Position numbers and translations under genes: made by a program. From contig CAUYUJ010000022.1 in the NCBI GenBank assembly GCA_963575745.1, positions 1 through 64,000 of the forward strand: a stretch of 64,000 nucleotides of DNA, written 5' to 3'. Below the pieces are notes generated by a model. It did no database searches. It was not told where the DNA came from and saw only the letters and a list, made by a program, of their open reading frames with translations. This document shows positions 8,945 through 33,172 of the stretch, piece by piece. Positions within the stretch are counted from its first letter, which is position 1; every line of letters starts with the position of its first letter. This DNA is from Prorocentrum cordatum (lineage: Eukaryota).

Positions 8945-9108
8945 TCAGGGGAGAAAAAACACACAGACACAATGAATTGTCGATCCCCCAGAAAATATAT
9001 ATATAAAAAAATGGGAAGTGGGGGGAAGACAAAAACCCAGAAAATATGGGAAAATATGGGGGATCATTTTATTTGTGTGTATTTATTTGTGTGTCCCAGG
9101 GCCCCTTC
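8945..9108 (+). mobile_element. Family A copy 2
   Basis: Same sequence, followed by AAAA; flanked by a 34-bp near-perfect direct repeat (8909-8942 / 9113-9146). Confidence 0.8.
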
Positions 9109-14400: not shown

Positions 14401-15053
14401 ATACGGTATTGCAGAATGCGGCCCACATACTACAACAAGCGCAAGCAGGAGAAGCCGACACACTACAAGCTCCAGTTCATGCTGAGCGCGCAGCTGCAGA
14501 GCAGCCAAATCTACTTCGACACGACGCCCGTGGGCACGGTGCACCAGGCGGTGTGCGAGGCTCTCTTCAAGATCGGCGGCAAGTACAAACCAGGGGGTCC
14601 TCCCAAGGGCGGCCTCGAGAGGGAGGCGCTCAAGCTCCTCGGCAGGATGGGCATGAACAAAGCGGACGACGAGGACATGAGCGACGACGACGAGCTGGCG
14701 GGCTAGATGCCAGGCTCACGCACATCGCGGGATCAGAGCGCATGCTCAGCATGGCGCAGCATGGGCAGCTTCAGGATGCCGGACTGAGGGCACTGCAGGC
14801 TCGTTCGAGCCACCCCATCCTTCAGTATACCTCTCCCTCTGGCAGCATCTTCATGGCCTTTTATGCCCCTCCTCTCCAATTCCAGATTTCTTTAGAAGAT
14901 ATCACGACTCGTGCTGCCAGTCTTCGAGCCATGCCTCTACGCGGCTCGACGGCTACTGTTGTTTCTGCAGGTGATCGTGCCCAGGATAGACTCATCAGTA
15001 CAGCGTTGCAGCATGGTGGCGATGATGATAGGATCTCCAACTCCCAGTCATGA
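11473..15053 (+). CDS. Reverse transcriptase with two C-terminal zinc-finger-like motifs and a long low-complexity tail
   Basis: RT motifs DISNAFGS, GALQGDP, YVDD (12483-12494), LNPTKNE, KYLGS; CCINGCGKSFGTRRQLTSHLHQHH and CFICGQIFESRNSAYKH at about 13500-13670; frame open to TGA at 15053. Confidence 0.9.
13855..14706 (+). CDS. 283-aa unknown protein encoded downstream of the RT core and overlapping the RT ORF in another frame
   Basis: ATG 13855 to TAG 14706; normal globular composition (LTKLCLNNSRDMADL, YGPPWTHMWLALL, GGPPKGGLEREAL); third positions visibly G/C-rich; lies inside the TSD-bounded element. Confidence 0.8.
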   Translation: MPEGAAAAAAASSEEWKPKAPSWGPPAVSKPKARPAEGEAAGERGPKSPRRLKQLKQATEDTMQRHSLGPLKALVKVLTKLCLNNSRDMADLIGACYSCFILAAAHPLVVAVLAAGKQYYESCKEAGRDHSYGPPWTHMWLALLTALLEHPETPETSKKALKVYWDANIAGDRSSLHQLQDQIRYCRMRPTYYNKRKQEKPTHYKLQFMLSAQLQSSQIYFDTTPVGTVHQAVCEALFKIGGKYKPGGPPKGGLEREALKLLGRMGMNKADDEDMSDDDELAG

Positions 15054-16112
15054 GGTGGACTGTGGGGGACTTTCGGGTGTGGAGTTCATTTTCCTATCTG
15101 AGCCCCTCGGTGCCTCTCATTTCATACACATACATATTGATTGCGTTGCTTCACTTACTCTTTGAGGGGTTCACTCGTCGCCTCTCAGTGCTTTGCAGGA
15201 CAGATGGTGCCTCGGCGGGGCCCCAAGGTTCCCCCATCAGGGGTCCCCGCATGTGGCCAGTGGAATCCCCCTGCAGAGCGACCGACTACCGATGTCGACA
15301 GACAGCGGACGCAGATCCTCTTGCAGTACAAGGCCGCTCTTCTTTTTTGCACCGTGTAGAGAGGTCACAAGCACATGGGTCGCAAGCGTGTCTTATCTTA
15401 TCCTCCTCCAACTCCTCCTCCTCCTCCTCCTCCTCCTCCTCCTCCTCCTCCTCCTCCTCCTCCTCCTCCTCCTCCTCCTCCTCCAATTCCTCCTCTTGCA
15501 TGGTGGCACAAGTCGCCATAACGGCATCCCGGTTTAGGCCTTTCCGCTGGCGCAGCCTTCCCCTGCCTCGCCGCCGACGCAAAAACGCGTGCATCCAAGG
15601 GGTATATCCTTTTGCCCCCCCCTTCTTCCCCAGAGATCCAGCGTATGGGAAACAGAGGATGGAGGGTTTTCGCTGTTTCGGCATCTAAAGGCCTTCGCTG
15701 GGCCCTGGGACAATCTCGAGGCCCTCGCCGACCCCAGGGACTGTGTCGAGACTTCTATGGGCCCGGTATGGTAGAAAAAAAAAAACGTCGTATCTCTGGG
15801 TCCCTATACACTTTCGGCGGTCGCGGGCTCGAAAGCAGAGTCGCGGCGGAGAATGCTGGGATGCGGTGATCGCGCGGCCGGGCCCTCATGAGAATCTCCC
15901 ATAGGGAGCTCCACCGAAAGCCCCGGTGGACGCGGCCGCATGCGTCTCCCCCACCCAGCGTCCGCCTGTCCGGGGTGGTCGCCCTCCCCCCTGCTCAGGC
16001 CCCCAGAGACCAGGACGCAGACAAACCAGGACACGGAAGACCAAGGAAACGACATCCTTTCCTGCAAAGTCACGTTTTTCAGCACCCTTGCATGTTTTGT
16101 TTGTTTCTGCAC

Positions 16113-16321
16113 GAACGAAATGGGCACGGAAAGAATGGGTATAATGCCCAACAGCAGTTCCTGTTCATTTTGAACAGGACTCGCTGTCCACGCCGCCGCG
16201 GCCTGTGTCCATTTGAGACAGAAGGCCGCCTGCCCAACAGTGGCCGCTGTTGGTTTGGGACAACATTTGTTGTTGGGCATTGTACCCATTCTTTCCGTGC
16301 CCATCTCGGGCGTCCAAACTG
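16113..16321. mobile_element. MITE-like family D (about 210 bp, about 35-bp TIR)
   Basis: TIR ATGGGCACGGAAAGAATGGGTA.AATGCCCAACA; CTGCAC on both flanks; copies at 45269-45480 and (partial, reverse) about 50585-50758. Confidence 0.8.
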
Positions 16322-16749
16322 CTGCACTGCAGGATTCGGGTTTGTGTCCGGGTTTAGAGGGGGTCTTGCAGGCTTTTGGGGCCTGTCTCCGGGTTTATAT
16401 TGGCAATGCTGCAGTGCAGTTTTTTTTGCTCGTGCCGCCGTTTGGAAAAATTGGTTTCGAGGGATGTTGGGTGTCCAGGTCTACAGTCGGGGCCCTGAAG
16501 AAGGAACCCTTTTCGTTGGGGAGGGGTTCCGTGTTCCTTAATTGTTTCGCAGCTTGCTTTAGATTTTCCTTAGGGGTTCGATGCGACATCGAAGTTTAAC
16601 TTATGGAAAATAGGGGCCTCGCTCCTTATTTAGAGTTCCTTAGGTCAACGCCCCGAGTGTAGCGTGTCCGGGTCTACGTGGCCTGGACTTGCGCCGACCG
16701 GTCAGCGATCCCCGATCCCCGAGCATCCCCAGACCCCTTCGGGTAAGAC

Positions 16750-16912
16750 TCAGGAGGGGAAAAAAACACACAGACACAATTAATCGTCGATCCCCCAGAA
16801 AATATGGGAAAATATGGGAATTGGGAGGGAAGACAAAAACCCAGAAAATATGGGATAAGATTGGGAATTGTTTAATTTGTGTGTATTTATTTGTGTGTCC
16901 TGGGGCCCCTTC
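16750..16912 (+). mobile_element. Family A copy 3
   Basis: Same sequence; AAGAC direct repeat at 16745-16749 and 16914-16918. Confidence 0.8.
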
Positions 16913-18399
16913 GAAGACGCAGTCGCGACAGATGGCTTTTTGCTGTTGCCGCCGTCGGCCTCCTGGCCCGGGGGGGGGGGCTGTCGCCAGGTCGCGGGAC
17001 AGTTGAAGGGCCAGTCGATCCTGGGGAATGGGTCGATACCTCCAAGGGTCCACGCCGTGAAACAGACATGGGGTCTGGGATCTGGGCCGATCCTCCCTCC
17101 TCGATTCTGGATCCTGGACTATCGATCTCTCCTTCTGCTGCTGCTGCTGCTGCTGCTGCTAACGGTTGACGAAGGTCATCCTGCAACCGCCTGTCCTGCC
17201 GAGCGCCCGGGGGCTCATTAGGGAAAAGGTGAGACGCGAGAGGTAAGACAAAATTGTGGGGCTCGACCCCAGTAAGGAATAAGAGGGAGAAGGAGAGGGG
17301 GCAGCAACATAACAGACATCCATCGGGGGCAGGAAGAAGAGATGGAGGTACACGGTAAAGCACAGACAGGCGCAGATGGACCCCTAAGGGCCCTGTTTTG
17401 AGTCCCCCCCCCATTTGGGTCCCCCAACCTCATGGGGTCGGTGCCCTGGGGGTGCCCTGGGTCAACCCTTCTGGGGCGCCCTCGTGGACAGAGGATGGGA
17501 GGTGGGTGGGTGGGGGCACTGAGGTAGCCGAAGGTTTTTAATACATGAAAAGTGCCGGTGGCCCTGATGGCCCTGTTGGCAGTTGGCTCCGCTGATGCGC
17601 TGGGTTGCATCGAGTTGGCCCTGTTGGCCATGGTGAGGGTACTCTCTGTGGCCCCAGTGGCCCGGCGGCTAGACAGCGCAAGAAGCTGCAAGGAGATAGG
17701 TATCAAGGCTGTGAGCATATGATCAGCGCCTGGCCCTGGTGGCCCTGTCAGTGTGGGTGGGGCACTGTAGGCTTCAAAAGCACAAGAGGATCGGCGGAAC
17801 ACGGAGGTAGGACGGAGGGTTGTATGGTAGTCCAGGTGGAACCAAGCATCAGGCAGCGGGGGTAGGAGGTGGAGGGTTTGCTTGGTCAGTGCCCTACTGG
17901 CCGTGAAAAAGTGAGAGGACATTTGCGGGGCCATTCTGAGGGTGCCGCGGTGCGGCACGGCCGAAGGCAAGGACCTCAGCTCCTGCAGTTAGGAACCCCG
18001 CCTAGCTAGCAGACGTCATCCTGGCTGGCACCCTCCGCCTCCGAGGATGAAGTTGGGTACCCAGTCCAAGGTGAGTATGTCTGCTGTCTGGGGGGTTCAC
18101 CTCGCGTGGATCTGGTTTGCTTTCGATACTCCCCGACGAAGGCAGTAAGCTGCAACCCTCGTCGGGGGAGGTGAATGGCGTGTGGTGAGGACGGGGTGGG
18201 TAAAGAGATACATGCCATCTGTTTGCAGGTTTCGAACCACGGCAGCATGGCCAACGCCATGCCGCCGACGGCTGAGTGCTCCCCTTCCCGCCCATCATAT
18301 CCCCCCGTCCCGATTCCACAAGAGGGGGGAAGGCGAAGGTTAGCGGGGCGAGGCACGAGGACCAGGAAGGTGGAGAGGGTTGGGGAGATAGGTGGAATC

Positions 18400-21300
18400 T
18401 GATCGAAGACGGAGTTGATGTAGGCGGTGCAATTGATTTAGTCGCGGTACCCTGTGCCTTCCTCGTGGAGGTATTGCCGCCATTCGTCCGTGCTCTGCCG
18501 CTTGGTGAGGGAGATGGGATAGCATGTACGCGCGTAGTGAGATGTAGGGATCGCGCGGCCAGCCGCTGTAAGGTCGGTCCGACCATGAGGCCTGGCCTCA
18601 GTCTTGTGGCGTCCAGGTGGGGTTAGCCTGGTTCGCTCGCAGAGGGTCGAGCCGTGGGAGTCTGAGAGGGAGTCGGCGTATGAGTCGAAGAGGTGTTTTG
18701 GAAAGTAAGTCGGAGAGGTGGAAGGGGCGTAGTGCATGGTGGTGCTGTGGCGGCGTCGGTCGGGCGCGCGGGCGCCAGGTTCGGCCGTCCAGGCCTGCGT
18801 TGGTGATGGCGAGGATGGCTACCGCCAGTGATTAGGGTGCAGTTGGCCGGCGTAGTCGCTGAGCTTGCCGAGGAACTTGGAGGCGGAGTCATTGGCCGAA
18901 GTGATCTCCTTCTGGATGCCGAGGAAAGTGTTGTAACTGACCTGTGGTTCCCCTACCATAGTGGTGAGGGTGTCGAGCTTCTCCTGGGTGTCGTGGTATT
19001 GGGGGCGGTACTCGGAGATGATTTCTGCGATCAAAGCTTGTTTGCTGATTCGCGCGTTGTTGCATTGAGTGATGGTACCGCGGGCCCAGAGCTCGCTCTT
19101 GCTGTTGAAGGGCACGCTGAGTATTGTGACCTCGTCGCCCTCGTTGACAGTGATGGTGCCGTGGGCGATGGGGTCCTCCAGCCTGGTGTGGTACGAGTAG
19201 CGTATGGTGGCTCCCATAGGGAAGGTGATTGTGTCGGTGTTTACTTTCTCGTGGGTGATCGTCGCGATGGGGAACCATTCCGTGGGCTTTTAGGGCTCCA
19301 CTTGGATGGGGTGTGGTTGGTTGTCGTTTGCAGTGAGAGTGCTGGTGCTTAGCGTCGGGTCGTGGATGCGGTAGTGTGCGTGTGCTGTTCCCCTGCATCG
19401 GGCTCCTGCTGTGTGGTCGTGTCCTCGTAGTCGATCTTGTCCTTCGGTTGTTCTGCGGTGTTTTCCTTGACGGTCGGCTGGGTAGGTGGGGCCTTGAATC
19501 TCACTGGCTTTGTTCCTGGGTTGGGCCCACTTCGAGGGGAGGCTTGGTGACCTGGGTTGGAAGTCGCCTGCAGGGGAGTGGTTGCTGGCATGGTGCTGGC
19601 GATTGTACTGCCAGTGCTGGTAGGTATGGCAGTGTCAGACATATGGGCTGTGTTGTTGATTGCGGTTATCAGTCTAGTTTCCTACATGTGGGTGCTTTCT
19701 CCTTGTGATGTCGACTCCCGCGTCGGTAGTATCTCGATGTGGATCTCGCGCTTGAAGATGCTGTGGTCGTCGCATGGTGCCAGTATTGGTTTGGGTCTGC
19801 GTATCTGTTTGATGCGACGGAGAATGTGGCTTACGCGTGGAGGGTGTGGGCCTCCTTCTCGTATAGGTGCGACCGCGAGCAATTTGTAGCCGAAGATGAG
19901 GACTGGCGCGGTGTAGTGGTTCACCTTGAGGCGGGAGAAGAGAGTGCCACATGCGTGCTCGCTGTGCTACAGATTTGCTCGGTCGGCCTATTGGCGAGCG
20001 TCTAGTCCCCGTTGGTAGTCGGTCCTCATCTTGTCGAGTAGGTCGTGGATGGTTTGTGCCATGGCTTTGTCGGCCTGCTCTCGTTTCACCGGGTGCTCAG
20101 GGATCATTGAGGGATGGAGGGTATATCGGCCTGAGGCTGTGGTAGAAGCAGCCGTCCTTGTTGATGCTGAAGGCCTCGATGTTCTGGTCGGTGAGCTGCC
20201 GAGTGTAGCATGGTTCGTAGTTGTCGTCGCCTGGGAACTTCCATTGGGTGGTGCTTGTCCCCAGGTTGTCGTGGTAGGCGAGGCTTCTCGTTGCGCCGGC
20301 GTGCGCGGCCCAGCCTGGTGGCAATTTAGCATGGTGAGATGGGTCAGGTCGCAGCGCTTCGCCTTGCCTGTACACTGGTGCGGCGCATGGGTTGCAGAAG
20401 TATCGGTTGGCCCCTGGCATCTTTGTGGTGATTTGTATGGGGGCCCTGCCTGGGGTTGGGCCAGGCGGCGGCGGCGGCTGGTTAGGCGTCGGTGTCGTGT
20501 TCTGGTTGTATATGAGCTGGAAGACGATCGGCATAGGGATTGGCATGGTTTCTTGGACCTGTGGTGTGGATCTTCGCTGAATCAGCTGCAGGTCGGCATT
20601 TCTGGGAGTAGCGCGAACTGGCCGTTGCGCCTGTTGTGGTCGAGCCTCTTGGAAAGCCGCATGCCATTCGGGGAAGTAGCTCTGGGTCCAGTTGATGGGC
20701 TGAAAGCCTGCGTTGCGTAGTCTGTGGCAGCGGTGAAGCAGGTCTCGTGTGCTGTGGCTCTCCTCGTCATCTGTGAGGTACTGCCTTGCGTTGTGGGCCT
20801 CTCGAGCTCGGATGGCTTGTCGATGTCGGTGACCTTTACCTGCGTGATGCCGCCAAGTAAAGTCTCGGTAGGTTGCTTGTACTCTGGTGCTTCGTAGTCA
20901 GGTCGGTGTCTTATCTCAGTTGGTGCATCCCCGTCGGGGGTGAAACCGACTTGGCGTACGATGATCTCCCTCTGAGTGGCCTCAGTGTGGACGTTGGTGG
21001 TTCCGTCGGTTCTTGTTGCACATGTCTCCGAAGTAGTGGCGATCTCCTGCAGCACCTGAGCTGGGTATTCGGTGAGGGCGTTGTCGACGGTGGCGGGCCG
21101 TTTGGGAAGGTCGCTGATGGGCGCGCTCAGCTTGAGAATCGTCACGCGGTTGTGCCCGTCCACGTGCCCTTCCATGCCGATGAAAGTGCTACGCTCCGTT
21201 GCCGTTGGTGACGTAGATCTGTTGGTATTCGCTGGCCTCTGATGTCCGTCTCGTCGCAATGTAGTCAACCGATTGTGCGTGGAGTAGTGTGGTGGCGATC

Positions 21301-22394
21301 CTCCTCCTATTGGTATGGGGAGGACGTATTTGTCAGAATGCGGGTGTGGTGCTCCTCTCCCGCTCGTTTCAATGATGTCTCTTGCATATGCTGATAGCAT
21401 CCCAATCTCGGAGGTCGGGTGCCAGGTGCCGTAGATCTCGGTGGTCGCCACGATGTAGACCGTCTGGCTGTATCGCTCGATGTTGCCGTGGATGGCTGTG
21501 CGTTCTATATCCTCGAAGTTGTGGCGCAGTTCTATGCCCTTCTTCTTGAAGATGTATAGGGTCTGAATGTTCGCGAAAGGCTCCTCGCCCTTGTTCTTCC
21601 ACGGTGGCGCTTGTAGCTGTGGTGGGCCAGTGCTCGCTAAGTTTTGGATGTCATGCCACTCCAAGTTGTGGACGGGTATCTTCTTGGAGCCGCGGTCGTT
21701 AGCAGCGTCTCCTTTTTCGCGGTGCTTCTGTGGCGAGGTGGTAGTGCAGGCAGTTGCCGGGTCGGTCCATCCAACGGTCTGTGCCGGTCCACATCTCGTT
21801 GCTGGAATGGACCGTGAAGTTGTCGCACAAGGTGGCCCACTTCTCCCCGACTTCGCCCTTCCAGCATTCCCCAGCTGCGGCGAGGCAGGCGGCGGCGATG
21901 CGGTGCCGATAGGTGGTCCGCACGACTCCGCCCTTCACTGCTGCGGGGGCGTCGATGTGGCCCAGGTCGAGGTAGGCGTGCGTGTAGTTGCGCGCGCGGG
22001 CGTCGGATGTGTTGACCCCTTGCGATGGCCTGGCAATGCCCGAGCAAGTGGCAACTCCTTGTGGCCCTGCTCGGCGGCCCCCAGGAGTGCAGATGATCGC
22101 CGTCTTGTTGTCGTAGCCCTTGTTGTAGGACATGATGGCAGGCTCTCCTTCTTGTTGGTCCTCTGGCGGGGCCTCGCTCCGCATCTTGCGTGGGGCTGCG
22201 TTGATGGCTGCGACTGTTTGTTGGTTGGCGTGGTCCAGGTCCTTCACTCCGTTGGTGCAGTGAGACTTGACCTCGTTGAAGTCGATGCACGTCTGTAGCT
22301 TGCCAAAGACGTCTGCCGGTATCCAAATGTCTTCGTCTTGATCTTGTTGAGGTATACTAAGCCGATCAGGGCGTAGATCCAGCGGCGTTTTCAT
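18400..22394 (-). pseudogene. Large fragmented intronless gene with WW-like (20232-20324) and SH3-like (about 19070-19210) domains
   Basis: ORF pieces 21699..22394, 20582..21664, 20097..20546, 19682..19924, 18819..19217; LPPGWAAHAGATRSLAYHDNLGTSTTQWKFP (WW pattern); YSYHTR...TITVNEGDEVTIL...ELWARG (SH3 pattern). Confidence 0.6.
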
Positions 22395-22453
22395 GGCGCA
22401 CTGCGCTTGGCAATGGGTGCGCCAGGGGCGCGCTGGTCAGCTTGGGCTTAGCT

Positions 22454-22477
22454 CTTGAGCCAAAGCTGCGCTACGGT
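22454..22477 (-). promoter_or_regulatory. Dinoflagellate spliced-leader (DinoSL) relic
   Basis: Minus strand reads ACCGTAGCgcagcTTTGGCTCAAG versus canonical DCCGTAGCcatTTTGGCTCAAG (exact 8-nt 5' and 11-nt 3' blocks), 59 nt upstream of the ATG at 22394. Confidence 0.8.
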
Positions 22478-22649
22478 CAGTGGTGCGTCAGAGTTGTTAT
22501 CAGGTGGTGTGCAGGTGGTGCGATGAGGGGTAGCGTGTTTTTTTACAGGGTGAGCGACCGGGCGCCACGCTGAGGCGCGCCAGAGCCACTTCTGAGGAAG
22601 CTGTCTGTATCGTAAGACATGGACCGCATTGGCCCGCGTAGCGCGGGGT

Positions 22650-23530
22650 GGCCGCCGCCCGCCGTCATCCTGGCGTGCTTCATTGCCCCCTGATGTACTT
22701 GATCGCGTAGTCGTTTGCTGCCTTAGACGTAGCAGTACGGTTCCAGCGGGGTGTACAACTCCGCAGTGTCGCCTTCCATGTCCCCGTTCTCACGGTCTCT
22801 TGGCTGCAGCCATCTGCGGTGTATAGCGTCCATGATGGCGTGAGCAAGTAGTCTGCGCGTCTCGGTGGTGTGGATCCTCGCGGCAGCGCTCTCCCAAGGG
22901 CCGTCGTTGCTCCGTCCAGTTGAATGGTGGCCACGGTTGGGTAGTAGTGCGACCGTCCGTCGTATTTATGGTACCTGTATTGCGATAAGTGTAGTCGATC
23001 TCACTGCTGTCTGTCCTGTCATGCAGTGACCGAAGGTGATGACGTCCACCCCGTCAATGCCACTCCAGTTTTTTTTTTCCTGATAGCAGTCAGCAGCTTG
23101 CTGTATCCCTTCCGTCGTTGTCTATGGCGGGGTGCTCCGTGATCATGGCGGCCTTCAGGTTTATGCATATGTACGCCAAGAGAATAGTGGTACGCATGCC
23201 CTGGTTGTCGCTATGTAGTTGTTCGAGCTGCCGCAGACACAGGTGCTGTAGTCCCCAAGGTTGACGCTGGCTCCTCAGATGTCGCGTTTGGTACCTGCCC
23301 CATGTCTCGCGTAGTGACCCAACTGTGATAGCGGCGACGCGGCCGCGTAGTAGTTGGTCTCTCCAGAACTGCGTGGTGCCCCATTTCGCGAGGTCGCTCT
23401 TGATCTCGCCGTGGGCGATGTCGATGGAGAGGGTTATGATGCTGTTGCCGTTGGGGTTGAGGTACTCTATCCATTGTTGCACGTCACCGCCGCGTCTGTG
23501 TCCACTGCAGATGCGTAGGATGACCTGTCT
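22650..23530 (-). pseudogene. Cytosine-5 DNA methyltransferase-like domain remnant
   Basis: VILRICSGHRRGGD (motif I-like), LSIDIAH (motif II-like), GSLRETW (degenerate GPPCETW, motif IV), ITEHPA (motif VI-like), then VITFGHCMTGQTAVRST and GTWKAT in shifted frames. Confidence 0.7.
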
Positions 23531-23789
23531 CGAAGTACCTGTGGGTCTTGGCATGGGCGTCTGGTCAGGTCTTGATCCCACCCGTGATGTAGCAGGTATG
23601 GGCATCTCTCTTATAGCCTCGTGGTCCTTGACGTACAGCGGCGGCATGTCAGTCTTATAGCTGGCGGTGTGCGCGTGTAGTGGAGTAGTCCAGCCTTAAT
23701 GTTGACTCTTTTCTCGTCGCGTATGGCTTCTCGGTTTGCTTCAGTGGTTGCCTCGGCCTGCCTGCCTGCGTCTCGCCCCCATTGTGCCG

Positions 23790-23975
23790 CGCATGCAGTG
23801 CACGCGAGTAGGTGCTTGACGAGTCTTCCAAATGCGTGGCACGCGTTGCAGCATGTCAGGCATCTTGTTCCATGAGCCCATCTAGTTTGGTGGTCATCTG
23901 CTGGGTGGTGTTTTCCCACGCGGACGTAGAATGCATGGATCTCGGTAAAAGTGGCGCCACACTCGTAGCACATGA
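23790..23975 (-). pseudogene. Zinc-finger remnants after RT
   Basis: CYECGATF...VGKHH and CLTCCNACH...LVKHL..C..C in ORF 23611..24234. Confidence 0.65.
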
Positions 23976-24239
23976 CCGCCTTGTCGTTGTGGATGTCGTC
24001 GGTCATGAGTGGTGGTCGTGACATGGTCGTCATGCCGCCGTTTCGGTAAGGTTGCAAGCTGCTGTGCCATTGTCGTAGGTGTTCTTGATCGCTGTTGTGT
24101 CGCATGTTGCGCTGCGTCACGGCATTGACCTGCGACGTGAAGATTTGAGGTGTCTTGCGGGTTGCGCTGGAGGTGAGGTCGAGGTCCGCGGTAGATGCGC
24201 ATGCAGGTGTACGTGTTTGGTCGTCGAATTTCAATACGT

Positions 24240-25480
24240 ACTTTGCCTTTGTTGATCTTCTGGTGGCCGTGGCCAGCTGCTACCCTGCATCCCTTCAGGT
24301 TCTCGGCCTCGATGCTATGGGGCTGCCCATGTTTGAGAAGGTTCCAGCTGTATGAGTTGTAGAAGAGGACCGAGTTGGTGAGCGCGTTGTTGAGGAGGGT
24401 CTTGTTGTCGATGCTCAGCTGTTTTCGCTTGTAGACTTCTCTGCGTAGTGGGGCTCTGCCCGTCGTGGCCGTTGAGATTTCCCGCTGCTTCTCTGGTCCT
24501 TGCCCTCCGTCGTATACTGCGGTGCCCAGCGACATCTGGTGGTTGACGAACTCGATTGGTTCGCTGAGGTGCTCGTTCTCTATGTTCGTGATGCTGAGCC
24601 TGGCGAGTTGCTCCTTCGCTGTGTTGATCGGTGTCCGCGCATGAGCAACATAACACTGGCCTTTTTGGCGTTGGGTCGCATGCCGTGGGCCATGGCCCAT
24701 GTGACTATGATGTTGGAAAGCGTCTTGGCCGTGCTGGTGATGTCATGTGCAGCGCTGCGTCGCATGCGGGCGTGGGCGTTCATGTCGTGTACGAAGTCAG
24801 CGTGTCTTGGTGGTCGTTCCCGCGCAGATGTGACTGGGTCCGCGTGTCTCGATTGCGGTGCTGGCGGCGAAATTTTTGCGCTGCTGCAAGTAGGCGTGGA
24901 GGTAACTTCCTCATCTGTTATCTTCCTCAGGTTGGCCTTCATCTCCGGCATGGGGGGCCACGCTGATGTTGCCCCAGTATTGGTTGCAAACAAGGCCGTC
25001 GGTATGTGAGCGCGGTGCGCGAGCAACCTCTGTGGTTCGTTCAAACCCAGGTTCGGTAAATTTGACAATAGGTAGCCTGGGGGTCTGGGTCATAATTCTC
25101 CATTGGTTGGGCGTGAAGTATAGCTGCTTGCCGTGGTCGTCGTGGTAGGGGAGGTGCGTATGGAGGAGTAGCGAGCGGCTCAAAGTGTGTTTGTCGCGCC
25201 CCGCTTGAGATGACGGCGCACAGGTCGGCGGTGCGGGTTCCTCGCGGTAGTCTTGACCTCATGCACCCCTATGACGTGCAAATGTATGTCGGAGACCTGC
25301 TGTCGGATAATTGTGATAATGGCTACTTTTCACTTTTGTCGCGCCCCTGCTTCTCTTGGACCTCGGAGGAGCGTGCGCTGCGGGCGCAGCTGCGGATGTC
25401 GATCTTCGTGTCGCTGGAAGTCGCGGTGTATTGTGGTACGAAGTGGGTCGGTCGAGCTTGTATCTTCGTTGGAGGTGCCA
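24240..25480 (-). pseudogene. Partial APE endonuclease joined to the C-terminal half of RT (large internal deletion)
   Basis: EN-like PRLPIVKFTEPG...VARAPRS at about 25010-25085, followed within about 250 bp by RT-like DFVHDM (degenerate FVDD), GMRPNAKKASVML, HQMSLG (cf. YKHLG) and LTNSVLFYNSYSW. Confidence 0.6.
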
Positions 25481-25673
25481 GTCCGTGTTGGTCCACGTAG
25501 GGGTAGGCGTTCTTGGTTTCGTTGCCTGCTTATTGTCGCTCCCACTGTCGTTCTCTATCTGCGTGGCAGGCTCGCGTCCACTCTTCCGATGGACATTGCT
25601 GGCGGATGCTGTGCGTTGCTGCGTACATCTTGGCGGGGCTGTCTACCAGCTCGTTCCAGGGGTGTCCTGCGTG

Positions 25674-26051
25674 TCATCGTACGTGGTCAGTGTTTGGGTT
25701 GACCGCCTCAGCGGTGGGGTCGTGCAGTACGAAGTCGGTCATCTGATTGGGTTTCTTTGGTTGGAAACTGTCCTTGGCGAGTCCTCTGGCAATCATGGAG
25801 TCGGTATGTATAGTGACGTCAGGTTCAGGGGTGGCGTTGTCGAGGTGTGCATATATCCGTGCTCGCGCCAAAATGAGAGCTGCTAGTTCTGATGTGGCAG
25901 AGTTGCTTGGAAAACTGTCATCTTTGAATGGCGTATTGCTGTGTGCGCTGACACTTCCCTGGTAGATGTAGCCTTGTTCGTCTTCGGCGGTGGTAACCAG
26001 GGTCCATGAGTCTTGGGTGGAGTCGCGCTGATGTGTGCCGTCGTTGTACAT
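25674..26051 (-). pseudogene. RNase H domain remnant
   Basis: MYNDGT...SWTLV...NSATSELAALILA...VTIHTDS fits the RNase HI D-E-D catalytic pattern. Confidence 0.75.
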
Positions 26052-27299
26052 GTGCCATCATTTGACCTGTTGATGGGGTCAATCAAGGCGGGCACAGCTC
26101 AAGCGCCATGGCGGCGGCTGGGTGGCGGTCGGGAACGTTAGCTAGGTCGTGCTGTTGCTGGAGAGTAGGTGGCAACGTGAGTCTCAGGACGGCCGCTACC
26201 GGCTCCGCCGGAAGGAGTGGAACTGCCATCGTGAAGTTTCTCCCTTGCTGTGTACCTTGGGGGGGGTCACCCATGGGTACGTCGGTCTGCCGATGTAGCG
26301 CCCTCCGCGTCGATGTCCAGGTCGCCTCGCGCGGAGCCCGAGCTGTCGTCGCGCGGCGAGGCGCATCTGGTTGAAGTGGGAGTTGTGAGGTCTATGGCTG
26401 CTCCGCCACCCCTCCCTACGACCAGGCTTGCCGAGCTTCTGCTGGCGTTGTCTCGTTCTCCTGCTGGCGCGCGTTGCTGCAGGGGCTGCCCGAGGAAATG
26501 TGTCGTCGATTGCCTGTGCGACGCTGGCTGGTAAATAGGGAGCATTGCTGCTCGTTGAATTCCAGTTGGGCGTTGGCAGCGGGACCGTGCATTGGGTCGG
26601 GCCCGTCTGGTTCTGGAGCGGCCAGTTGTGGTGATGGTAGTCGTCCCGGTGTCAGTATGTCTAATGGTTGTTGCTACGCTGGCCCGATGGGCCTCAGTGG
26701 CGGCGGCGCCCCCAACGCCGCCGTCCCTCGCCAATTTTTCCTGCGTGGTCGTGGGCGCCCCCCTCGATGCCACTGCTGTCGTTGTCGTCGTAGTGGTTCA
26801 TGGGGGTGATGTTCCTCTCTTCTGCTGGATCCACTGCGCCCTGGCCGTCGGCCGCGGCGAAGCGTGCGGGGCGTCGCGGTAATGACTGAGGTCGGCTTTG
26901 TTCCGCGCGGTGTACGCGAACTTCTTCAGATGGCTGGGCGGGAGAGTCTTCGGTGGCAGCGATGCTGATCTGTTTGGTGGGGTGCCGATGTGGAAGGTCG
27001 TTGCTGGTCGGAAGTCGATCGGTGTCATGCATTCCATTGGTGACATGGTTGCTTCCCCTGGGGGTGTGCATGGTGTCGTTTCGGCTGTCACTGTTGGTTG
27101 GGCTAGTAGCCCCTCTTCGTCTGCTATCGGTGCCGACGCCTCGTCCCCCTTGAAGCCGCCGCGTTGGATGTGGGACTCTTTGGACCAACTGAGGTAGTAA
27201 TCGTCGTTCCTCGCCTGCGTTGAGGCTGGCCCCCATGGCTCAGGTCGTGCAGTTTTAATAGACTCGTCGGCGTCAGGTGAGGCGGCTGGGCTTTCGTCT

Positions 27300-29455
27300 T
27301 CTGATGTCGACTTAGCTGGGTTGATCAGGTCCTTCTCGCGGTGGCATTCGCCCCTCTGTGTCTGAGCGCCGTGGTCCTCGATGTCGGAGATCTCGGAGGC
27401 ATGGGCGACAGCGAGCTGGGCTCTTGGGCCATCTTTTCGCAGTCCTGTTCATCGTGGCGCCTGCAGGAAGGTAACAATGGAGTCGGGGTCGCTGTTCCTC
27501 AGCTGGCTGGCGAGGTCGTGGACGAAGTCAGCTTTTTGTTTCTTCTGCATTGCGTGGATCTCTGCGTGGGCTTCCTCGAGTTGTCGTGCACGCTGCTGCA
27601 TAGGTGTCTCTGTGACACGTTGCTCGTTGCAAAGCTGCCCGAGAAGGTGCCCCTGTGACTCTATGGAGGTTTTTGCAGCGTTGAGCTGGTGGCGGTCGCA
27701 GTGCATGCGTTCCGCTTGCAGCTCCGCTGTCGCCGCGTCAGCCTCTTTGAGCTGGCGCAGCTGACCGATGCGTTTCTGTTTTGCATTCCCTCGGTCCGCC
27801 CCCCCCCGGCCCCCGGTGCCTGGATGACCTCGGTCTTGTCATTCTGCTGTTTCTCCTCGGTATGCATGAGATCTGCTTTTGCCCGTAGATCTCGTTATCG
27901 AGGTAGCTGGTTCGTTGCTCTGAGAGGTTGTTGTTGTGCTGGATGCGCTTGCGGGCCTGGTCCTCCATGTTTGCGTTCTCAGCTTCCGCAATTACGAGTT
28001 CTTGTCGCAGCTGGTATTGTGCATGCTGTTGCTGATGGAGTTGACGAGCTGCGTTCCTTGTCTGCTGTAAGTCGTTGATGGTGATGTGTCGTTGGTGCTC
28101 TAGGTGCTGCATGGCTTCATCTTTCCCTTCTAAGCTCTGCTCTATTTTGTTGTGCGTGATGAACGAATCCGCGACTCGTGGCTGCCGCGGTTGGCGTACA
28201 TGTAGTCGTGCTTCTTCCAAGGCTCGTTGTAAGTACTCGCTGGGGGTGGCTGTCTCCTGGTAGCTCTCGTTGCATCGTCTCGATCACTGGGGGATTTTGT
28301 TGTTGTGGTCGACGGTCTGCCGCGTGATGTCGTTGGCCTCGCGGAGCTTGGTCCTGATAGTATCGATCATGATGCTGTGTGTCTCGGTCTTGTGCGTTCT
28401 GTGCTCTGCGATCGCCTCGGTTGCCTTCTTGATGGTGTGGATATCCTTCTTGTGCTCCTCCACCTGGTCGTGTTCGAAGCGCTGGAGCTTGCGGTAGCTT
28501 TCAACTTTCGTGGTTGTGGTGGGACTCCTTCGCTTCTTCGAGCTGGTTGACGATGGCTGTTTGCTGTGTGGCATGACTTCGCTGCAATTCAACTTTCCGG
28601 GGTGCTTCTTGGAGCTCTTGTCGCAGCCTGTTGACGGTGAAGGCCTCCGCAGGTACTTGGGTCGCTGGTGGTACTGGTGGCATTTATCCGATGTATCCTC
28701 GGTGGCGTCTCCGAATGTTGGGTGCTGCGGTGTCGGAGCGTTGTTGCTTTGTGCGCTTCCTGGGCGTCGTTGCTGGCTCGGCATCGGCGTCGTCGTCCGA
28801 ATCGGCCCCCGTGATGCTGTCGTGGAGCCTTCGACGTTGGCGATGTCGATCTCCCAGTAGCGTGGCCTTTTGCTGCAGCTCGTCTAGCTGATGCTGTGCG
28901 TCGCCCGTCTGGATGACGGTGTCGTTGGTCATGCTCTCAACCTCTCTCCGCTGGTCCTTGTGCGTCGTGCGAGTATAGCAGCATGGACTTCTGTAGTCGG
29001 GTCTTGGTGACGATGCCGTTGAAGTCGTCGTCGTCGTTGGCGTGCCGCTGGATAGTGGTAATGAGATAGTCGATGTCTGCCTTGCAGTTATTGCGGTGCT
29101 CCTTGACTCGTTCGTAGCGGCGCGTTGGGTGTGGCTCGTTCCAGTGCTGTTGTCTTCTGGCTTCGGTGAGGGTCATGGACGCGATGTTGGCAGCAGTCTC
29201 TTTTCTCGTCTCCTGTATACGTTGCACGTTGAGGCAGTGCTGTTGTTCTTTTTCTGGTTGCTGCTGGGGGTGATGTCCCATGGAGCTATTTCTGCCCGTG
29301 CCGCGGGTGTCGTCACGGCTGCGGGCGCGCCATTGTGTCCGAAGGGTTCTTGTGGTGTCCCCTTGGTGCTGCTGGTGTCGGTGCTGGTACTGCTGTTGGT
29401 GCCATTGTTTGTTGTGGTAGCTGCCGACTGGAGTCTGGGCCATCTTGGGCGCCAT
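27300..29455 (-). pseudogene. Fragmented coiled-coil ORF1-like protein
   Basis: Successive Q/E/H-rich helical ORF pieces (28937..29539, 28684..28932, 28501..28683, 28284..28784, 27738..28220, 27449..27706) separated by stops and frameshifts. Confidence 0.6.
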
Positions 29456-30089
29456 GGTGGTGTCGGGTGGTTGGGGTGGTTGTTGGGCGCTGTGGTGGTC
29501 GGCGAGAACTTGGCGTGCGCGCTCGAGGCGGAGGAGCACTCCAGCGTCGGCAAGCTCGCGGCGTAGGCGATGGTGTCAGGCAAGCGGCCGTAATCATCGG
29601 GGTAGGCCCCCCGTGGGTGCTGCGGTGGAGGACGTGGTGGCCCCATAGTCGAGGTAGACGAAGTCGCCGATGTAGTCGCACAGCTGCCTCCCCCCTGGCG
29701 CGGGACAAGAGAAAAGGATATGAGGTAAAGTTCCTTGCTCACGTTCGCCCCTCCAGCGTTCACACAAACAGCTGGCCCAGGCTTGTGTTAAGACATGTCC
29801 GGGGGGCTGGCCCAGATTTCTTACATGATAAGTTTCTCCATCATATTCTCGGCTGCATGAAGGGAGGACCCCCCCAGTCCTCTCTCGAAGGGGCGGGGGG
29901 AGGAACAGCGCTCCTGGCGTCGGAAGATTTGCTTTGAATGCCCCCACTCGGCACTGTGACCCCCAACCGGCGTTTCAGTTCCTGTTGCCTGCCACGCTTC
30001 GCGTGACGTCGAGACGCGGTTGATCTTGGGCCGCTCAAGAAGTACCTTTGGCCCTAAAAATCGCTGTGCAATGTAATGATTGGACTCAC

Positions 30090-30821
30090 GTCGAGGAGGT
30101 CCTCCTCCTCCCCAGAGATCCGACGCCCTGTTGTCCGCGTCGCCCCAACATACTTATACTATGTGTGCGTCTCCCCCCCAGGGGCGACGCGCGCACCGAG
30201 AAATCTTATAGTATATGTGTCGTGGCGGGCGCTTTCAGCCCGCCCCGCTCGGGAAACGATATACTACAAGATGGGTATACTATATGTTCGGGTCGGACGC
30301 GCGCCTCCAAGGAGGACATATAGTACTAGTATGTCCCTGTGCGTCCCATGTTGTTTCAATACGGGGGGGGCCCTGGAACTCTCGACTCCCTCCCCCAGGA
30401 CCGGCTTCTCCTCCCGAGTCGTTTGTTGACGGTCCCGGGGCCCGGCCAGGGCCCCTCGAGGCCGAAGACGGCGAGACAAATCCGCACAGATTGCTCAATG
30501 TGCTTCATTCCTGCGGGTTCTCCTCCCCCTTCCTCCCCGGCGAGGCCAGACCCTCGACGTTACGAGTTTTCAGAACGTCGACCCCAAGAGGTCTCGACCC
30601 ACTCCCTGGGGCCAGCTTCTTGTCCTGAGCAGGTGGTCGTGTTCTTATGCGTTGTTTTGCCCATCGGCGCGGGCCCTCGCACCCCCCCCTTCCTCCCAAT
30701 GTCGAAGCGCCGAATAAAGAAAGCGCTCACCAGTTCTCTGATGGCCCCGAGACGCCCGGCGAGCGAACCCCCCACAGAGGCGACCGTGGCGCAAGACTCA
30801 CCTCCCGCCGCGATTCTTTTC
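30090..30821 (-). CDS. Cluster of probable small exons of the same gene (30802-30821; about 30552-30624; about 30460-30510; 30090-30127)
   Basis: Each begins at AG|G and two end at GTGAG. Phases chain with the 32928 exon: G-KESRRE|DKKLAPG...NVE-G-MKHIEQSVRICLAVFG. Two of the donors are uncertain. Confidence 0.4.
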
Positions 30822-31304
30822 CTGGCCCGAGGGGAGGTCTGGGAGCCGCGATCATTTCCTTTCCTCGATCCTCCTCCTCCTTCTCGATTCTCCTTGCCTC
30901 CTCCTTGCCTCCTCCTTGCCTCCTCCTTGCCTCCTCCTCCTCCTCCTCCTCCTCCTCCTCCTCCTCCTCCTCCTTTCCTCCTCCTCCTCTTCCTCCTCCT
31001 CCTCCTCCGCCGCGACCCTGGAGCTGGCCCTGGGTATCCAGGGAGCGGGGGGAAATGAGGCGGGATGGAATCTGGAGGGCACCAGTCGAAGAAATGGTAG
31101 CCCCACAACCCCACTTGGGCAGCTCCTCCTTCTCTCCCGCCCCTCCTGCCCAGCCCCCCCCCCTTCCCGCTTCCCCCCCCTTTCCCCCGAGCCCCAGGAG
31201 CACGCCTCGCGCCTGGCCCGCCGGCATGCCAGCGGGGGGGCGCCCGATACCCCGGCGTCGCGGGTGCGCAGGCGGGGGGGGGGGGCAAGAGCCGGCCAAG
31301 CCTG

Positions 31305-32307
31305 AAGTCGGGCACGTCCCTCTGAAGGAGGGGCATTCGAGAACAGGAGGGACAAAACAGTCTGGTGACGAGAAGTTCATCATATGTTTCCTGTTTTGGA
31401 ATATGTTTCGCCATTTTTTCCCCTACCAAAATCCGCCTGCAGGAGGGCAGGCCCGGCCTGAGCTTGAGTCGGGCCTGCCCCTCTACAGGAGGAAGATGTC
31501 CAAAATAGACAAAACATAGTCTGGGGACGATTGCTTTCACTATGTTTGGCCACTGGCAGGTATGTTTGGACCATTTTTAAAATTCTTCGCCCAAAATCCG
31601 CCTGCAGGAGTCGGGTCGGGCGAAAGGGGGGGATTGGGAAAGGGGGGGTTTGAGAATCAGCTCACGTAGCTGCTTTTTCCGGCGCCTCCCGGCGCCGGAG
31701 GCGCCTATGTATCGAGGAATGGGCCCCTCGGTGAGGCCGAAACTAGCTGCATGCAGCAAATTTCGTAACCCCCCCTTTCCCAATCCCCCCCTTTCGCCCG
31801 GCCCGAAGGAGGGCATGCCCGACCGGAACCCAAGCCAAGCCCTGTCGAGAGACGGGGAGCGGCGAGCCGGCCACGCGCAGAGCCCGGAGACCCCTCGGGC
31901 CAGGAAGAGAAGCCACGGCGTGGGAGGGCTTTTTCGCTATACGCTCCGCCTCCGGGGGTCGAGCATCTGGGCTTCAGTCGGGCCTGTCCCTCTACTCAGA
32001 GGAGGGAAAGGTATACCCATACCTCTACCCTTGTCTCGTTTTCCCTGGTTTGGGCCTCCTGGGAGGCCCTCGTCGCCACCGCTGGATTCTCCTCGAAATC
32101 TTGGTCAGAACGCGCTCCGGGAGAGGTCCGGGGAGTAGCGGTATCGGTGCCTTTTGGTTTCCCATCTACAGGAGGAATATTTAAAAATAGTCAAAAAAAT
32201 AGTGTGGGGACGATTTGTTTTGACAATTTTTGGGTATCTTAGGGGTATGGTCTGAGTATGTTTGATTTTCCGTCCAGAATCCGCCTGTAGGGGGACATGC
32301 CCGACTT
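31305..32307. mobile_element. Nested cluster: three family B copies, one interrupted by family E (31611-31806) and one by family C (about 31995-32160)
   Basis: B termini resume after each insert; AGGAG duplicated around E and TCTAC around C. Confidence 0.75.
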
Positions 32308-32927
32308 AAATTTGGGCCTCCTGGGTGGGCCAGGAGGATCGCGCCGCATCGCCGATGCATCGGCGACGCAGCTCGATGCTGGGCCCGCCGACGTCGCCGA
32401 TGCATTACCGATGTGTCGCCGATGTGCGGTGGGGGGGTTGCTTAAGGGATGTGCCAGGGAGGCTTCAGACCCCCGGGGATTCCTTATCTCATGAGGGCGG
32501 CGGTGATATCCATGGCCAGTCCGTGATTGGAGCCCCACGGGTTGCCAGACCCTGGATTCCTTATGTAATGGTTTCTTATACAATGCCTCACCGCATCGCC
32601 GATACAGTGGTGATGCGGTGCAATCCGCCGACCACGTCTAGGAGGTCTCTGGAGCAGGGGATCGACTACATAATTGATTTACGCTAGCCTTGTTTTTCCA
32701 TCGAACCTACGAACGACTGCGCAGAGTGCTCTACGTTGCACTCTACGTACTTTTCGTAGACTCGACGAACAAGTCACATATGGGGTAACTCAATTTTGTG
32801 GTCGATCCCGTATTCGAGGGGGCCCCACCGAGCTTCGGGACCGTCGAAAATTCAACTCGGGATGAGAAACGGATCCCCAGAGGAACGGGGTTCGTTGCCG
32901 CCGGGGGTCGGGGGTTGGGCAGCTCAC

Positions 32928-33172
32928 CGCGGGGGAAGCGAGTCCACAGGGAGACGGTCCTGATGTGTATCTCCGTTTTCGGGCTCCCAGGGTCCTCCAC
33001 GCGGCCTGGGATTGTTAGGACACGATTCCGGATGAAAAAGTCGTCCTGGGGGAAGGCCTTGTTTCCTTCAGGGTCTGTTTCCCTGATGACGCGATTCCCC
33101 AATGCGAGGCAGCGGAGAGTCAAGGCACACGCAGACGGGGTTTGGGGGGAGTCAGCCATTGTCTTCCCGTCC
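32928..33172 (-). CDS. Probable exon of a host gene (DGKTMADSPQ...SLWTRFPR)
   Basis: Acceptor CCAG|G at 33173/33172, donor G|GTGAG at 32928/32927; stop-free, non-repetitive sequence. Confidence 0.5.

What the first reader, a model, noticed from the sequence alone, without database searches (positions are those of the whole stretch)
18000..30035. DNMT-encoding LINE carrying a spliced-leader-headed passenger gene with WW and SH3 domains
Seen: on one strand and in one compositional block the order is coiled-coil ORF1, RNase H, APE, RT, zinc finger, DNMT-like domain, then about 170 nt later a DinoSL relic (22454-22477), a 59-nt UTR and a 4-kb intronless ORF. That ORF has an unknown N-terminal region, a poly-Pro stretch, a WW-like motif and an SH3-like motif. 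Known: cytosine methyltransferases fused to LINE ORF2 have been reported in dinoflagellates, and SL relics mark reverse-transcribed mRNAs. Inference: the element captured a trans-spliced mRNA as a stable third ORF, coupling a methyltransferase to a protein-interaction scaffold. I do not recognise this arrangement as described.
Basis: partly seen in the sequence, partly recalled or inferred. Interest (0 to 1): 0.85.

Follow-up and report, generated by a model that had tools for sequence, protein, structure and literature searches.

The report
Decayed retroelement block with leader-tagged pseudogene
An 11-kb one-stranded, multi-copy block holds a worn-out retrotransposon-like stretch followed by a broken, spliced-leader-tagged copy of a WW-domain gene; no test supports the claimed DNA methyltransferase or SH3 domain, and nothing shows that the two parts move as one element.

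Summary
The composition block is real. From about 18.44 to 29.6 kb the minus strand is A/C-rich and T-poor. The leader-like motif at 22454-22476 is also real: it is 3 edits from the 21-nt DinoSL core and was reached in 0 of 100 shuffles. It lies 59 nt before an ATG.

The "4-kb ORF" (22394-18438) is not open. It needs at least 7 frameshifts or stops. It is still a decayed coding sequence:
- Five short database proteins match it at 51-70% identity.
- Two of them bridge one of its frameshifts.

Its WW motif hits only WW domains in PDB (best single-domain E about 0.005). Pfam does not report it.

SH3, DNMT, RNase H, APE and RT have no support from Pfam, PDB, protein databases or fold search. The only DNMT hint is a weak Atlas lead. 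The "LINE" label therefore rests on motif remnants read by eye, strand asymmetry, lack of terminal repeats and multi-copy status.

A DNA run of the same organism holds several copies about 82% identical across both halves. Whether other copies keep the two halves together could not be resolved.

The published dinoflagellate DNMT-LINEs carry the DNMT in ORF1, not after RT.

Verdict: decayed retro-derived DNA, of modest interest.

The parts
18441..29600 (-). Whole A/C-rich, T-poor block. It is decayed coding DNA and a member of a multi-copy family.
   Evidence: Composition. The cheapest path of stops plus frameshifts costs 28, against 49.4 +/- 3.7 (minimum 40) in 40 dinucleotide shuffles. Many contigs about 81-84% identical in run X1 cover 18438-29849, while 17170-18437 has depth about 3.7. 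There is no second copy and no terminal repeat within the window.
27452..29455 (-). ORF1-like region. ATG at 29455, Q/E/K/R-rich and probably helical.
   Evidence: Translation. It needs 4 disruptions, against 7.8 +/- 1.6 in shuffles. The only Pfam hints are helical or coiled-coil families at E 0.037-0.075. Coiled coil was not formally tested.
22478..27451 (-). No domain is verified.
   Evidence: Motif remnants read by eye only: RHADFVHDM at 24807-24781; an LG...W..L 'thumb'-like stretch at 24535-24266; CxxC...H remnants at 23970-23905 and 23862-23800. Pfam, PDB and the protein database found nothing. Alignment to the intact neighbouring LINE ORF2 is not significant (z -1.3 to 0.5; anchored ungapped rank 96 of 1122).
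23093..23695 (-). Unsupported.
   Evidence: Searches were negative or generic. In the Atlas, the 30 nearest clusters are unnamed (0.93-0.94). The nearest named cluster has PF00145 in 13% of members at 0.83, which is a lead only.
22454..22477 (-). DinoSL-like relic.
   Evidence: The canonical sequence is as printed in PMC5585692 (passages). Two paralogous contigs' alignments end at 22476 and 22482.
22395..22453 (-). 59-nt leader between the relic and the ATG.
18438..22394 (-). ORF3 pseudogene. Reading frames run 2, then 1, then 2. There is a frameshift near 21730, an in-frame stop at 20582-20584, a second frameshift between about 20561 and 20483, and several more in-frame stops.
   Evidence: 7 disruptions, against 16.6 +/- 2.4 in shuffles, minimum 12. 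The 450-codon open stretch is reached by 1 of 500 shuffles. P0003 and P0004 bridge the 21730 frameshift and P0001 reads through the 20582 stop.
20448..20483 (-). Poly-proline stretch.
20232..20324 (-). WW domain remnant.
   Evidence: 63 PDB sequences, all 60 shown are WW proteins. Pfam does not report it.
19020..19205 (-). Unsupported.
   Evidence: PDB phmmer gave 2 hits at E 1.4 and 8.6, neither an SH3 protein. Pfam found nothing.

Best explanation
The block is dead, retro-derived repeat DNA made of two head-to-tail units on the minus strand.

Unit 1, about 29.6-22.48 kb, is the worn remnant of a non-LTR-retrotransposon-like element. It has a helical ORF1-like part, then a long ORF2-like part with only eroded polymerase-like and Cys/His remnants.

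Unit 2, 22477-18438, is a processed pseudogene. It was reverse-transcribed from a trans-spliced mRNA, so a leader relic sits 59 nt before its ATG. The parent gene family has an unknown N-terminal half, a proline-rich stretch and a WW domain.

Both units belong to families present in several diverged copies, and both have since decayed neutrally.

Shown here: the composition block, the leader-like motif, residual coding signal in both units, the WW domain, the frameshifts relative to paralogues, and multi-copy status.

Inferred: that unit 1 is a LINE; that the motif is a true leader relic; and that unit 2 was made by retroelement machinery. I rate separate mobilisation of the two units, with adjacency by insertion or by a one-off template-switch junction, as somewhat more likely than a composite that amplifies as one element. 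No methyltransferase is established.
For: - Composition block.
- Leader motif: 1 match, against 0 of 100 shuffles with a match; edit distance 3. Its position 59-83 nt upstream of the ATG falls in the range where PMC5585692 reports the best-preserved relics (passages).
- Residual coding signal: ORF3 needs 7 disruptions against 16.6 +/- 2.4; unit 1 needs 19 against 31.6 +/- 3.5; the antisense strand needs 52 against 61.9 +/- 5.3.
- The 450-codon ORF is reached in 1 of 500 shuffles.
- Five of five database hits (51-70% identity, 62-102 aa) lie in the same reading frames. Two of them bridge the frameshift and one reads through the stop.
- WW.
- Multi-copy: 3-12 paralogous contigs per listed site, about 81-84% identical in the 6 listed pieces on the block, on both sides of the motif.
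- No LTR or inverted terminal repeat.
- One paralogous contig's alignment stops at 22476 with 43 further letters unaligned, and the listed sites drop from 9-12 contigs (22102-22217) to 3 contigs (22558-22612).
- Pfam also misses the RT of the intact LINE next door, which the Atlas recognises (25 of 30 hits RVT_1, best 0.93). Pfam silence on unit 1 is therefore weak evidence against a LINE.
Against: - No reverse transcriptase, endonuclease or RNase H is detected in unit 1 by any tool.
- No poly(A) and no target-site duplication were found for unit 2, for unit 1 or for the whole block.
- No parent gene was found.
- The shared odd composition, similar summed contig depth on both sides of the junction (about 19-31) and similar divergence fit one co-amplifying unit at least as well.
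- The five related proteins come from a record labelled as a green alga (Pyramimonas sp.). By my recall, no spliced-leader trans-splicing is known in that group.
Confidence: 0.5

Rival explanations
1. Composite element, which is the first reader's idea without the DNMT. A non-LTR element acquired a trans-spliced host mRNA at its 3' end. This could happen by template switching of its reverse transcriptase from the mRNA's 5' end to the element's RNA, or by 3' read-through. The 11-kb unit then amplified as a whole, so ORF3 is a third ORF of the family.
For: - The same unusual A/C-rich, T-poor composition runs across both halves, while the neighbouring LINE at 9-15 kb lacks it.
- There is no poly(A) or duplication between the halves.
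- Summed paralogue depth is similar on both sides of the junction (19-22 upstream, 20-31 downstream) and lower in the 5' half (7-16). That is what 5'-truncated copies of one unit would give. The tool itself warns that contig depth is not copy number.
- Listed pieces are 81-84% alike on both halves.
- Three paralogous contigs cover 22558-22612, and their 'from_end' values may mean that one of them spans the junction (my reading of that column is uncertain).
Against: - One contig's alignment ends at the relic with 43 letters unaligned.
- Fewer contigs are listed upstream (3) than downstream (9-12).
- No whole-block target-site duplication was found.
- Only one copy could be read.
- Repeated retroposition by one machinery could give both families the same composition without any linkage.
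Confidence: 0.28
2. DNMT-encoding LINE, as in the title of the finding. The stretch 23.7-22.65 kb is a decayed C5 cytosine methyltransferase fused after RT and the zinc finger.
For: - In the Atlas, the nearest cluster with any Pfam family carries PF00145 in 13% of its members, at score 0.83.
- The single-sequence AF2 model shows an alternating strand-helix pattern at residues 57-126, with pLDDT 52-67 over residues 51-130.
- Motif-like remnants are visible by eye at 23524-23486, 23329-23297 and 23146-23123.
Against: - Pfam finds nothing even at E<=10.
- PDB phmmer gives 2 unrelated hits.
- Phage tblastn gives 6 records, none in a methylase gene.
- The protein database search found nothing.
- Foldseek's best hit is E 0.057, to AAA+ proteins.
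- VIA-align's best Z is 5.5, to GTPase-like folds, with no methyltransferase in the 50 rows.
- CpG observed/expected is 0.96 in the block against 0.85 for the window. This is unlike the CG depletion reported for SymbioLINE-Dnmt (PMC5890265 passages).
- The published LINE form has the DNMT in ORF1.
Confidence: 0.12
3. Unit 1 is not a LINE. The block is a string of old processed pseudogenes or another unknown repeat, and the leader-like motif may even be a chance or foreign sequence in a non-dinoflagellate genome.
For: - No retroelement domain is detected in unit 1 by any tool.
- A second, weak half-leader-like 14-mer lies at 25862-25875 on the same strand. It has 2 substitutions, and my estimate of the chance expectation is about 0.4.
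- The relatives are labelled Pyramimonas sp..
Against: - The full motif is far beyond chance in this window and sits at a paralogue alignment boundary.
- The strand-asymmetric, A-rich sense strand and the 5'-low, 3'-high contig cover are LINE-like.
- Pfam is blind to the intact LINE in the same window.
Confidence: 0.1

Closest known systems
DinoSL-relic retrogenes and processed pseudogenes of dinoflagellates (PMC5585692 and PMC12014239, passages read)
   Same: A leader relic lies tens of bases upstream of the ATG of a contiguous coding region. The unit is multi-copy and decaying.
   Different: The relic carries a 5-base replacement in its middle. No parent gene, poly(A) or duplication was found. 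The unit abuts a retroelement-like stretch of the same odd composition. The only named relatives carry a green-alga label.
SymbioLINE-Dnmt (de Mendoza et al. 2018, PMC5890265, passages read)
   Same: A LINE-like two-ORF layout without a poly(A) tail. A methyltransferase is claimed.
   Different: There the DNMT is in ORF1, upstream of the EN/RT ORF2, is found by Pfam, and the elements are CG-depleted. Here the ORF1-like part is helical, the claimed DNMT lies after the RT-like part and is found by nothing, and CpG observed/expected is 0.96.
SymbioDIRS-Dnmt3 (same paper)
   Same: The order RT ...
   Different: DIRS elements have split terminal repeats and a tyrosine recombinase. Here there are no internal or terminal repeats and no recombinase hit.
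L1-type 3' transduction and template-switch chimeric retrocopies of mammals (recalled, no paper read here)
   Same: They would give exactly this order: element sequence, then the capped 5' end of an mRNA copy, with no duplication in between.
   Different: They are known as one-off products, not as families with a stable extra ORF. The flanking duplication and poly(A) that define them were not found here.

Membership tests
Non-LTR retrotransposon (LINE) | Reverse transcriptase domain | tested here: inconclusive
   Pfam, PDB, the protein database and pairwise alignment to the neighbouring LINE all found nothing. Pfam also misses the intact LINE's RT next door. Only motif remnants are visible by eye.
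Non-LTR retrotransposon (LINE) | Endonuclease (APE or RLE) | tested here: inconclusive
   No Exo_endo_phos hit. PDB search of 26270-26797 gave 0 hits.
Non-LTR retrotransposon (LINE) | No terminal repeats; copies truncated at the 5' end | tested here: met
   No repeat within 17-31 kb apart from a simple repeat at 30857-31000. Contig cover is lower in the 5' half (7-16) than in the 3' half (19-22) (weak, because contig depth is not copy number).
Non-LTR retrotransposon (LINE) | Target-site duplication | tested here: not met
   Only chance-level 9-mers are shared between the flanks. Decay could have erased a short duplication.
SymbioLINE-Dnmt | C5 DNMT domain (PF00145) in ORF1, upstream of the EN/RT ORF2 | tested here: not met
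   No PF00145 hit anywhere on either strand. The ORF1-like part shows only helical-family hints. The claimed DNMT lies downstream of the RT-like part (for the definition).
SymbioLINE-Dnmt | CG depletion relative to the genome | tested here: not met
   CpG observed/expected is 0.96 in the block against 0.85 for the window.
DinoSL-relic retrocopy | DinoSL relic upstream of the start codon | tested here: met
   The 7 + 11 flanking bases are exact, the middle differs, and the relic ends 59 nt before the ATG.
DinoSL-relic retrocopy | Intron-bearing parent gene elsewhere; poly(A) or duplication at the insertion | tested here: not met
   No parent was found. No poly(A) or duplication was found. The genome is not held, so the parent search is incomplete.
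DinoSL-relic retrocopy | Host that trans-splices with DinoSL | not testable with these tools
   No genome is held and no SL RNA or other RNA gene lies in the window. The related proteins carry a green-alga label.
WW domain | LPxGW ... aromatic-x-x-N ... T ... W-x-x-P signature with WW spacing | tested here: met
   63 PDB sequences at E<=10, and all 60 shown are WW proteins. Pin1 WW scores 20.7 bits, i-E 0.0048. Pfam PF00397 is not reported.
SH3 domain | Sequence match to SH3 profiles or structures | tested here: not met
   Pfam found nothing. PDB phmmer gave 2 weak non-SH3 hits. No fold test was possible.
Template-switch or 3'-transduction chimera | One duplication flanking the whole chimera, and the same junction in other copies | tested here: inconclusive
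   No flanking duplication. Junction cover by paralogous contigs is ambiguous.

The most novel reading that the evidence does not exclude
A family of non-LTR elements picked up a once trans-spliced host mRNA, for a proline-rich WW-domain protein, at its 3' end by template switching. It has since amplified as an 11-kb three-ORF unit, so that repeated reverse transcription gave the passenger the element's own A/C-rich composition. The stretch after the zinc-finger remnants might add a methyltransferase-like module.
Probability: 0.22. Interest if true: 0.6.

Novelty: new member of a known kind. Interest (0 to 1): 0.3.

Why it matters
If the two halves really travel together, this would be a LINE family that has domesticated a host mRNA as a third gene. 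It would also be a natural record that such elements copy trans-spliced messages by template switching, which the papers read here only presume for dinoflagellate retrogenes. As it stands, the locus is one decayed copy. It mainly shows three things:
- Leader relics and WW remnants can be recognised by eye.
- DNMT, SH3 and polymerase calls made from eroded motifs do not survive testing.
- Pfam is blind to this genome's LINEs.

Tried and rejected
PROTEIN SEARCHES
- Protein database searches of the 450-aa, 282-aa and 201-aa pieces at similar length gave no hit.

METAGENOME SCANS
- Peptide patterns from the 450-aa ORF matched 55 stretches, but none was a relative.
- The exact 20-mer across the relic/leader junction had 0 matches.

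SEQUENCING RUNS
- One DNA(?) holder was listed, with a word share of 0.08. No RNA holder was listed, which says nothing about expression.

STRUCTURE
- AF2 of the 450-aa ORF with its 5 fragment relatives gave pLDDT 39.9. It was unusable and was not searched.
- AF2 of the 201-aa piece gave pLDDT 46.3. Foldseek and VIA-align gave only generic alpha/beta matches.

OTHER PDB SEARCHES
- The ORF1-like piece gave 2 unrelated weak hits.

OTHER CHECKS
- Rfam and tRNA scans of the window: 0 hits.
- No whole genome is held.
- Earlier scan notes: nothing on this genome or sequence.
- The culture label of the related proteins was not found in the paper library or among NCBI taxonomy names. I did not pursue the source further.
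- A DIRS or LTR reading was rejected: no terminal or internal repeats and no integrase or recombinase hit.
- An SL-RNA-gene reading was rejected because the bases after ...CTCAAG are AGCT, with no GT donor.
- A giant-virus cassette origin for the leader (lead) was not tested and seems unlikely for a multi-copy block of 58% G+C.


Full report
WHAT IS THERE

The claimed region lies on the minus strand. Over 18000-30035 that strand has A 3358, C 4080, G 2970 and T 1628. In 400-nt windows the AT skew is -0.19 to -0.56 from 18400 to 29599 and near zero on both sides. One strand-asymmetric block of about 11.1 kb is therefore real.

T-poverty makes stop codons rare in all three sense frames, so long open stretches need care. 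In 500 dinucleotide shuffles of the block the longest open stretch averaged 247 codons. The observed 282-, 266-, 245- and 239-codon stretches are thus unremarkable. Only the 450-codon stretch (20582-21934) stands out, and 1 of 500 shuffles reaches it.

A path search that charges 1 for each stop or frame change costs 28 over the block, against 49.4 +/- 3.7 (minimum 40) in 40 shuffles. Taken separately:
- The span from the ATG at 22394 to the stop at 18438 costs 7, against 16.6 +/- 2.4.
- The upstream part (29455-22478) costs 19, against 31.6 +/- 3.5.
- The antisense strand costs 52, against 61.9 +/- 5.3.

Both halves are therefore decayed coding DNA. Neither holds an intact gene, and the "4-kb intronless ORF" is a pseudogene.

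THE LEADER-LIKE MOTIF

The minus strand reads A CCGTAGC GCAGC TTTGGCTCAAG at 22477-22454. The DinoSL printed in PMC5585692 (passages) differs only in the middle: 1 substitution and 2 extra bases. The gapped pattern has 1 match in the window and a match in none of 100 shuffles. No other match within 5 edits lies on that strand.

The relic ends 59 nt before the ATG at 22394. The bases after it (AGCT...) lack a GT donor, so this is not an SL RNA gene.

One caveat applies. The scan covers very many windows, so a rare chance match somewhere is possible. Against that, the motif sits before a long ORF, and two paralogous contigs' alignments end there (22476 and 22482).

ORF3

The full-library HMMER search with the 450-aa piece gave 5 hits at E from 3.8e-17 to 7.2e-09. 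They are 62-102 aa long and 51-70% identical. All come from one EukProt record labelled Pyramimonas sp. CCMP1952.

Mapped back with tblastn:
- P0003 and P0004 run from the upstream frame (21794/21770-21726) into the 450-aa frame (21736 onward). The window copy therefore has a frameshift near 21730.
- P0001 reads through the stop at 20582-20584.

The proline stretch (20483-20448) and the WW-like motif (20324-20232) lie in the other frame, so a second frameshift falls between about 20561 and 20483.

The 46-aa WW segment hit 63 PDB sequences at E<=10. All 60 listed are WW proteins. The best is WWP1 at 1.5e-6, summed over its repeated domains. The best single domain is Pin1 WW at 20.7 bits, i-E 0.0048. 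Pfam does not report WW. I accept a decayed WW domain.

The SH3-like stretch (19205-19020) has no support. The N-terminal two thirds match no family, and AF2 gave pLDDT 39.9.

THE UPSTREAM "DNMT-LINE"

None of the 92 minus-strand ORFs of 50 aa or more has RVT, RNase H, Exo_endo_phos, DNA_methylase, WW or SH3 at E<=0.1. Ten of the 92 have unrelated weak hits at E 0.022-0.096. None of the 47 plus-strand ORFs of 70 aa or more has any family at E<=0.01.

PDB sequence searches of the RT-like, thumb-like, RNase H-like, APE-candidate and DNMT-like pieces found none of those families. Database searches found no relatives.

I can see remnants by eye: RHADFVHDM, an LG...W..L stretch, and two CxxC...H remnants. 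They are spaced like the motifs of the intact LINE ORF2 at 11385-15050. The alignment to that ORF is not significant, however (z -1.3 to 0.5; anchored ungapped score ranks 96 of 1122 offsets, and 172 of 2000 shuffles reach it).

Pfam also misses the RT of that intact LINE even at E<=10. The Atlas places it among RVT_1 clusters (25 of 30 hits, best 0.93). Silence is therefore weak evidence here. The LINE label is plausible but not shown.

For the DNMT the tests were:
- Pfam.
- PDB phmmer.
- Phage tblastn: 6 records, none in a methylase gene.
- Protein database.
- AF2: pLDDT 46.3, pTM 0.42, with a strand-helix alternation at residues 57-126.
- Foldseek: best E 0.057, AAA+ proteins.
- VIA-align: best Z 5.5, GTPase-like, no methyltransferase among 50 rows.

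The one positive hint is from the Atlas. After 30 unnamed clusters at 0.93-0.94, the nearest named cluster carries PF00145 in 13% of members at 0.83, which the tool calls a lead only. CpG observed/expected in the block is 0.96, against 0.85 for the window.

In the passages read of de Mendoza 2018, SymbioLINE-Dnmt has the DNMT in ORF1, upstream of the EN/RT ORF2, and is CG-depleted. The RT...DNMT order belongs to the DIRS form, which has terminal repeats and a recombinase. Neither is seen here.

COPIES ELSEWHERE AND LINKAGE

The window holds no second copy. One DNA(?) run was listed as a holder, with a word share of 0.08. Its contigs match 14000-15396 almost exactly (4 and 5 differences in 487 and 616 bases).

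The block is covered by many contigs only about 81-84% alike (53-62 differences in 321-344 bases in the 6 listed pieces), with 3-12 contigs per listed site. Summed depth per bin:
- 17170-18437: about 3.7.
- ORF3 (18438-22241): 14.5-31.
- The bin spanning the junction (22242-22875): 26.6.
- 22876-24777: 19-22.
- 24778-29215: 7-16.

Both halves are therefore multi-copy at a similar level, with less cover toward the 5' end.

For one unit:
- Same composition.
- Similar cover and divergence.
- No A-tail or duplication at the junction.

For two units:
- One contig's alignment stops at 22476 with 43 letters left unaligned.
- The listed sites fall from 9-12 contigs just downstream of the relic to 3 just upstream.

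The tool warns that contig depth is not copy number, and I could not lay reads again. No target-site duplication or poly(A) was found for either unit or for the whole block. Two metagenome scans found no further copies.

READING

Most likely (about 0.5) this is a worn retrotransposon-like remnant followed by a leader-tagged processed pseudogene of a WW-domain gene family. Both come from repeat families. They were mobilised separately or joined once.

The composite-element idea remains open (about 0.28). A real DNMT is unlikely (about 0.12).

The green-alga label of the only named relatives conflicts with a dinoflagellate-type leader and is unexplained. I did not pursue the source.

COMPARISON AND NOVELTY

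Leader-relic retrocopies are well described and are presumed to be made by LINEs (passages in PMC5585692 and PMC12014239). My paper searches listed no paper whose title or abstract start describes a LINE that carries such a retrocopy as an ORF. That is a library search, not proof of absence.

As shown here, the locus is a new member of known kinds. If the composite were confirmed it would be a new variant.

Noticed in passing
window 9007-15050 (+): An apparently intact LINE. ORFs of 921 and 1222 aa overlap at 11385-11769. By eye it has an endonuclease-like N-terminal half, a YVDD motif and two C2H2 fingers. Pfam reports no RT even at E<=10, but 25 of the Atlas's 30 nearest clusters are RVT_1 (best 0.93). 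Contigs of run X1 match its 3' part at about 99%, with depth about 5 times that of 17170-18437, so it looks like a young multi-copy family.
   Followed up: partly
window 15268-17169 and 29850-33000: Very high-copy short repeats flank the block (summed contig depth from about 350 up to 43,000). A 213-bp unit at 16106-16318, with an internal inverted repeat, recurs at 45269-45481 and 50572-50758. A roughly 165-bp unit at 16750-16912 recurs at 7136-7298 and 8947-9111.
   Followed up: partly
window 36576-40182 (-): Two long ORFs (501 and 684 aa) with no Pfam family. By eye the 684-aa one carries polymerase-like motifs (..FIDQ..), so it may be another Pfam-blind retroelement.
   Followed up: no
proteins P0001-P0005: The only database relatives of ORF3 come from a EukProt record labelled as the green alga Pyramimonas sp. 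CCMP1952, yet the window carries a dinoflagellate-type leader relic. The cause could be a mislabelled or mixed source, or something odder. The label was not found in the paper library or in NCBI taxonomy names.
   Followed up: partly
window 25862-25875 (-): A second, weak half-leader-like 14-mer (2 substitutions) lies on the same strand inside the RNase H-like stretch. It is about chance level.
   Followed up: no
window 27015-27348: One paralogous contig skips these 334 bases, which is an indel between copies of the family.
   Followed up: no
window 30857-31000 and many other sites: C/T-rich simple repeats that translate as poly-Pro or poly-Leu are scattered through the window.
   Followed up: no
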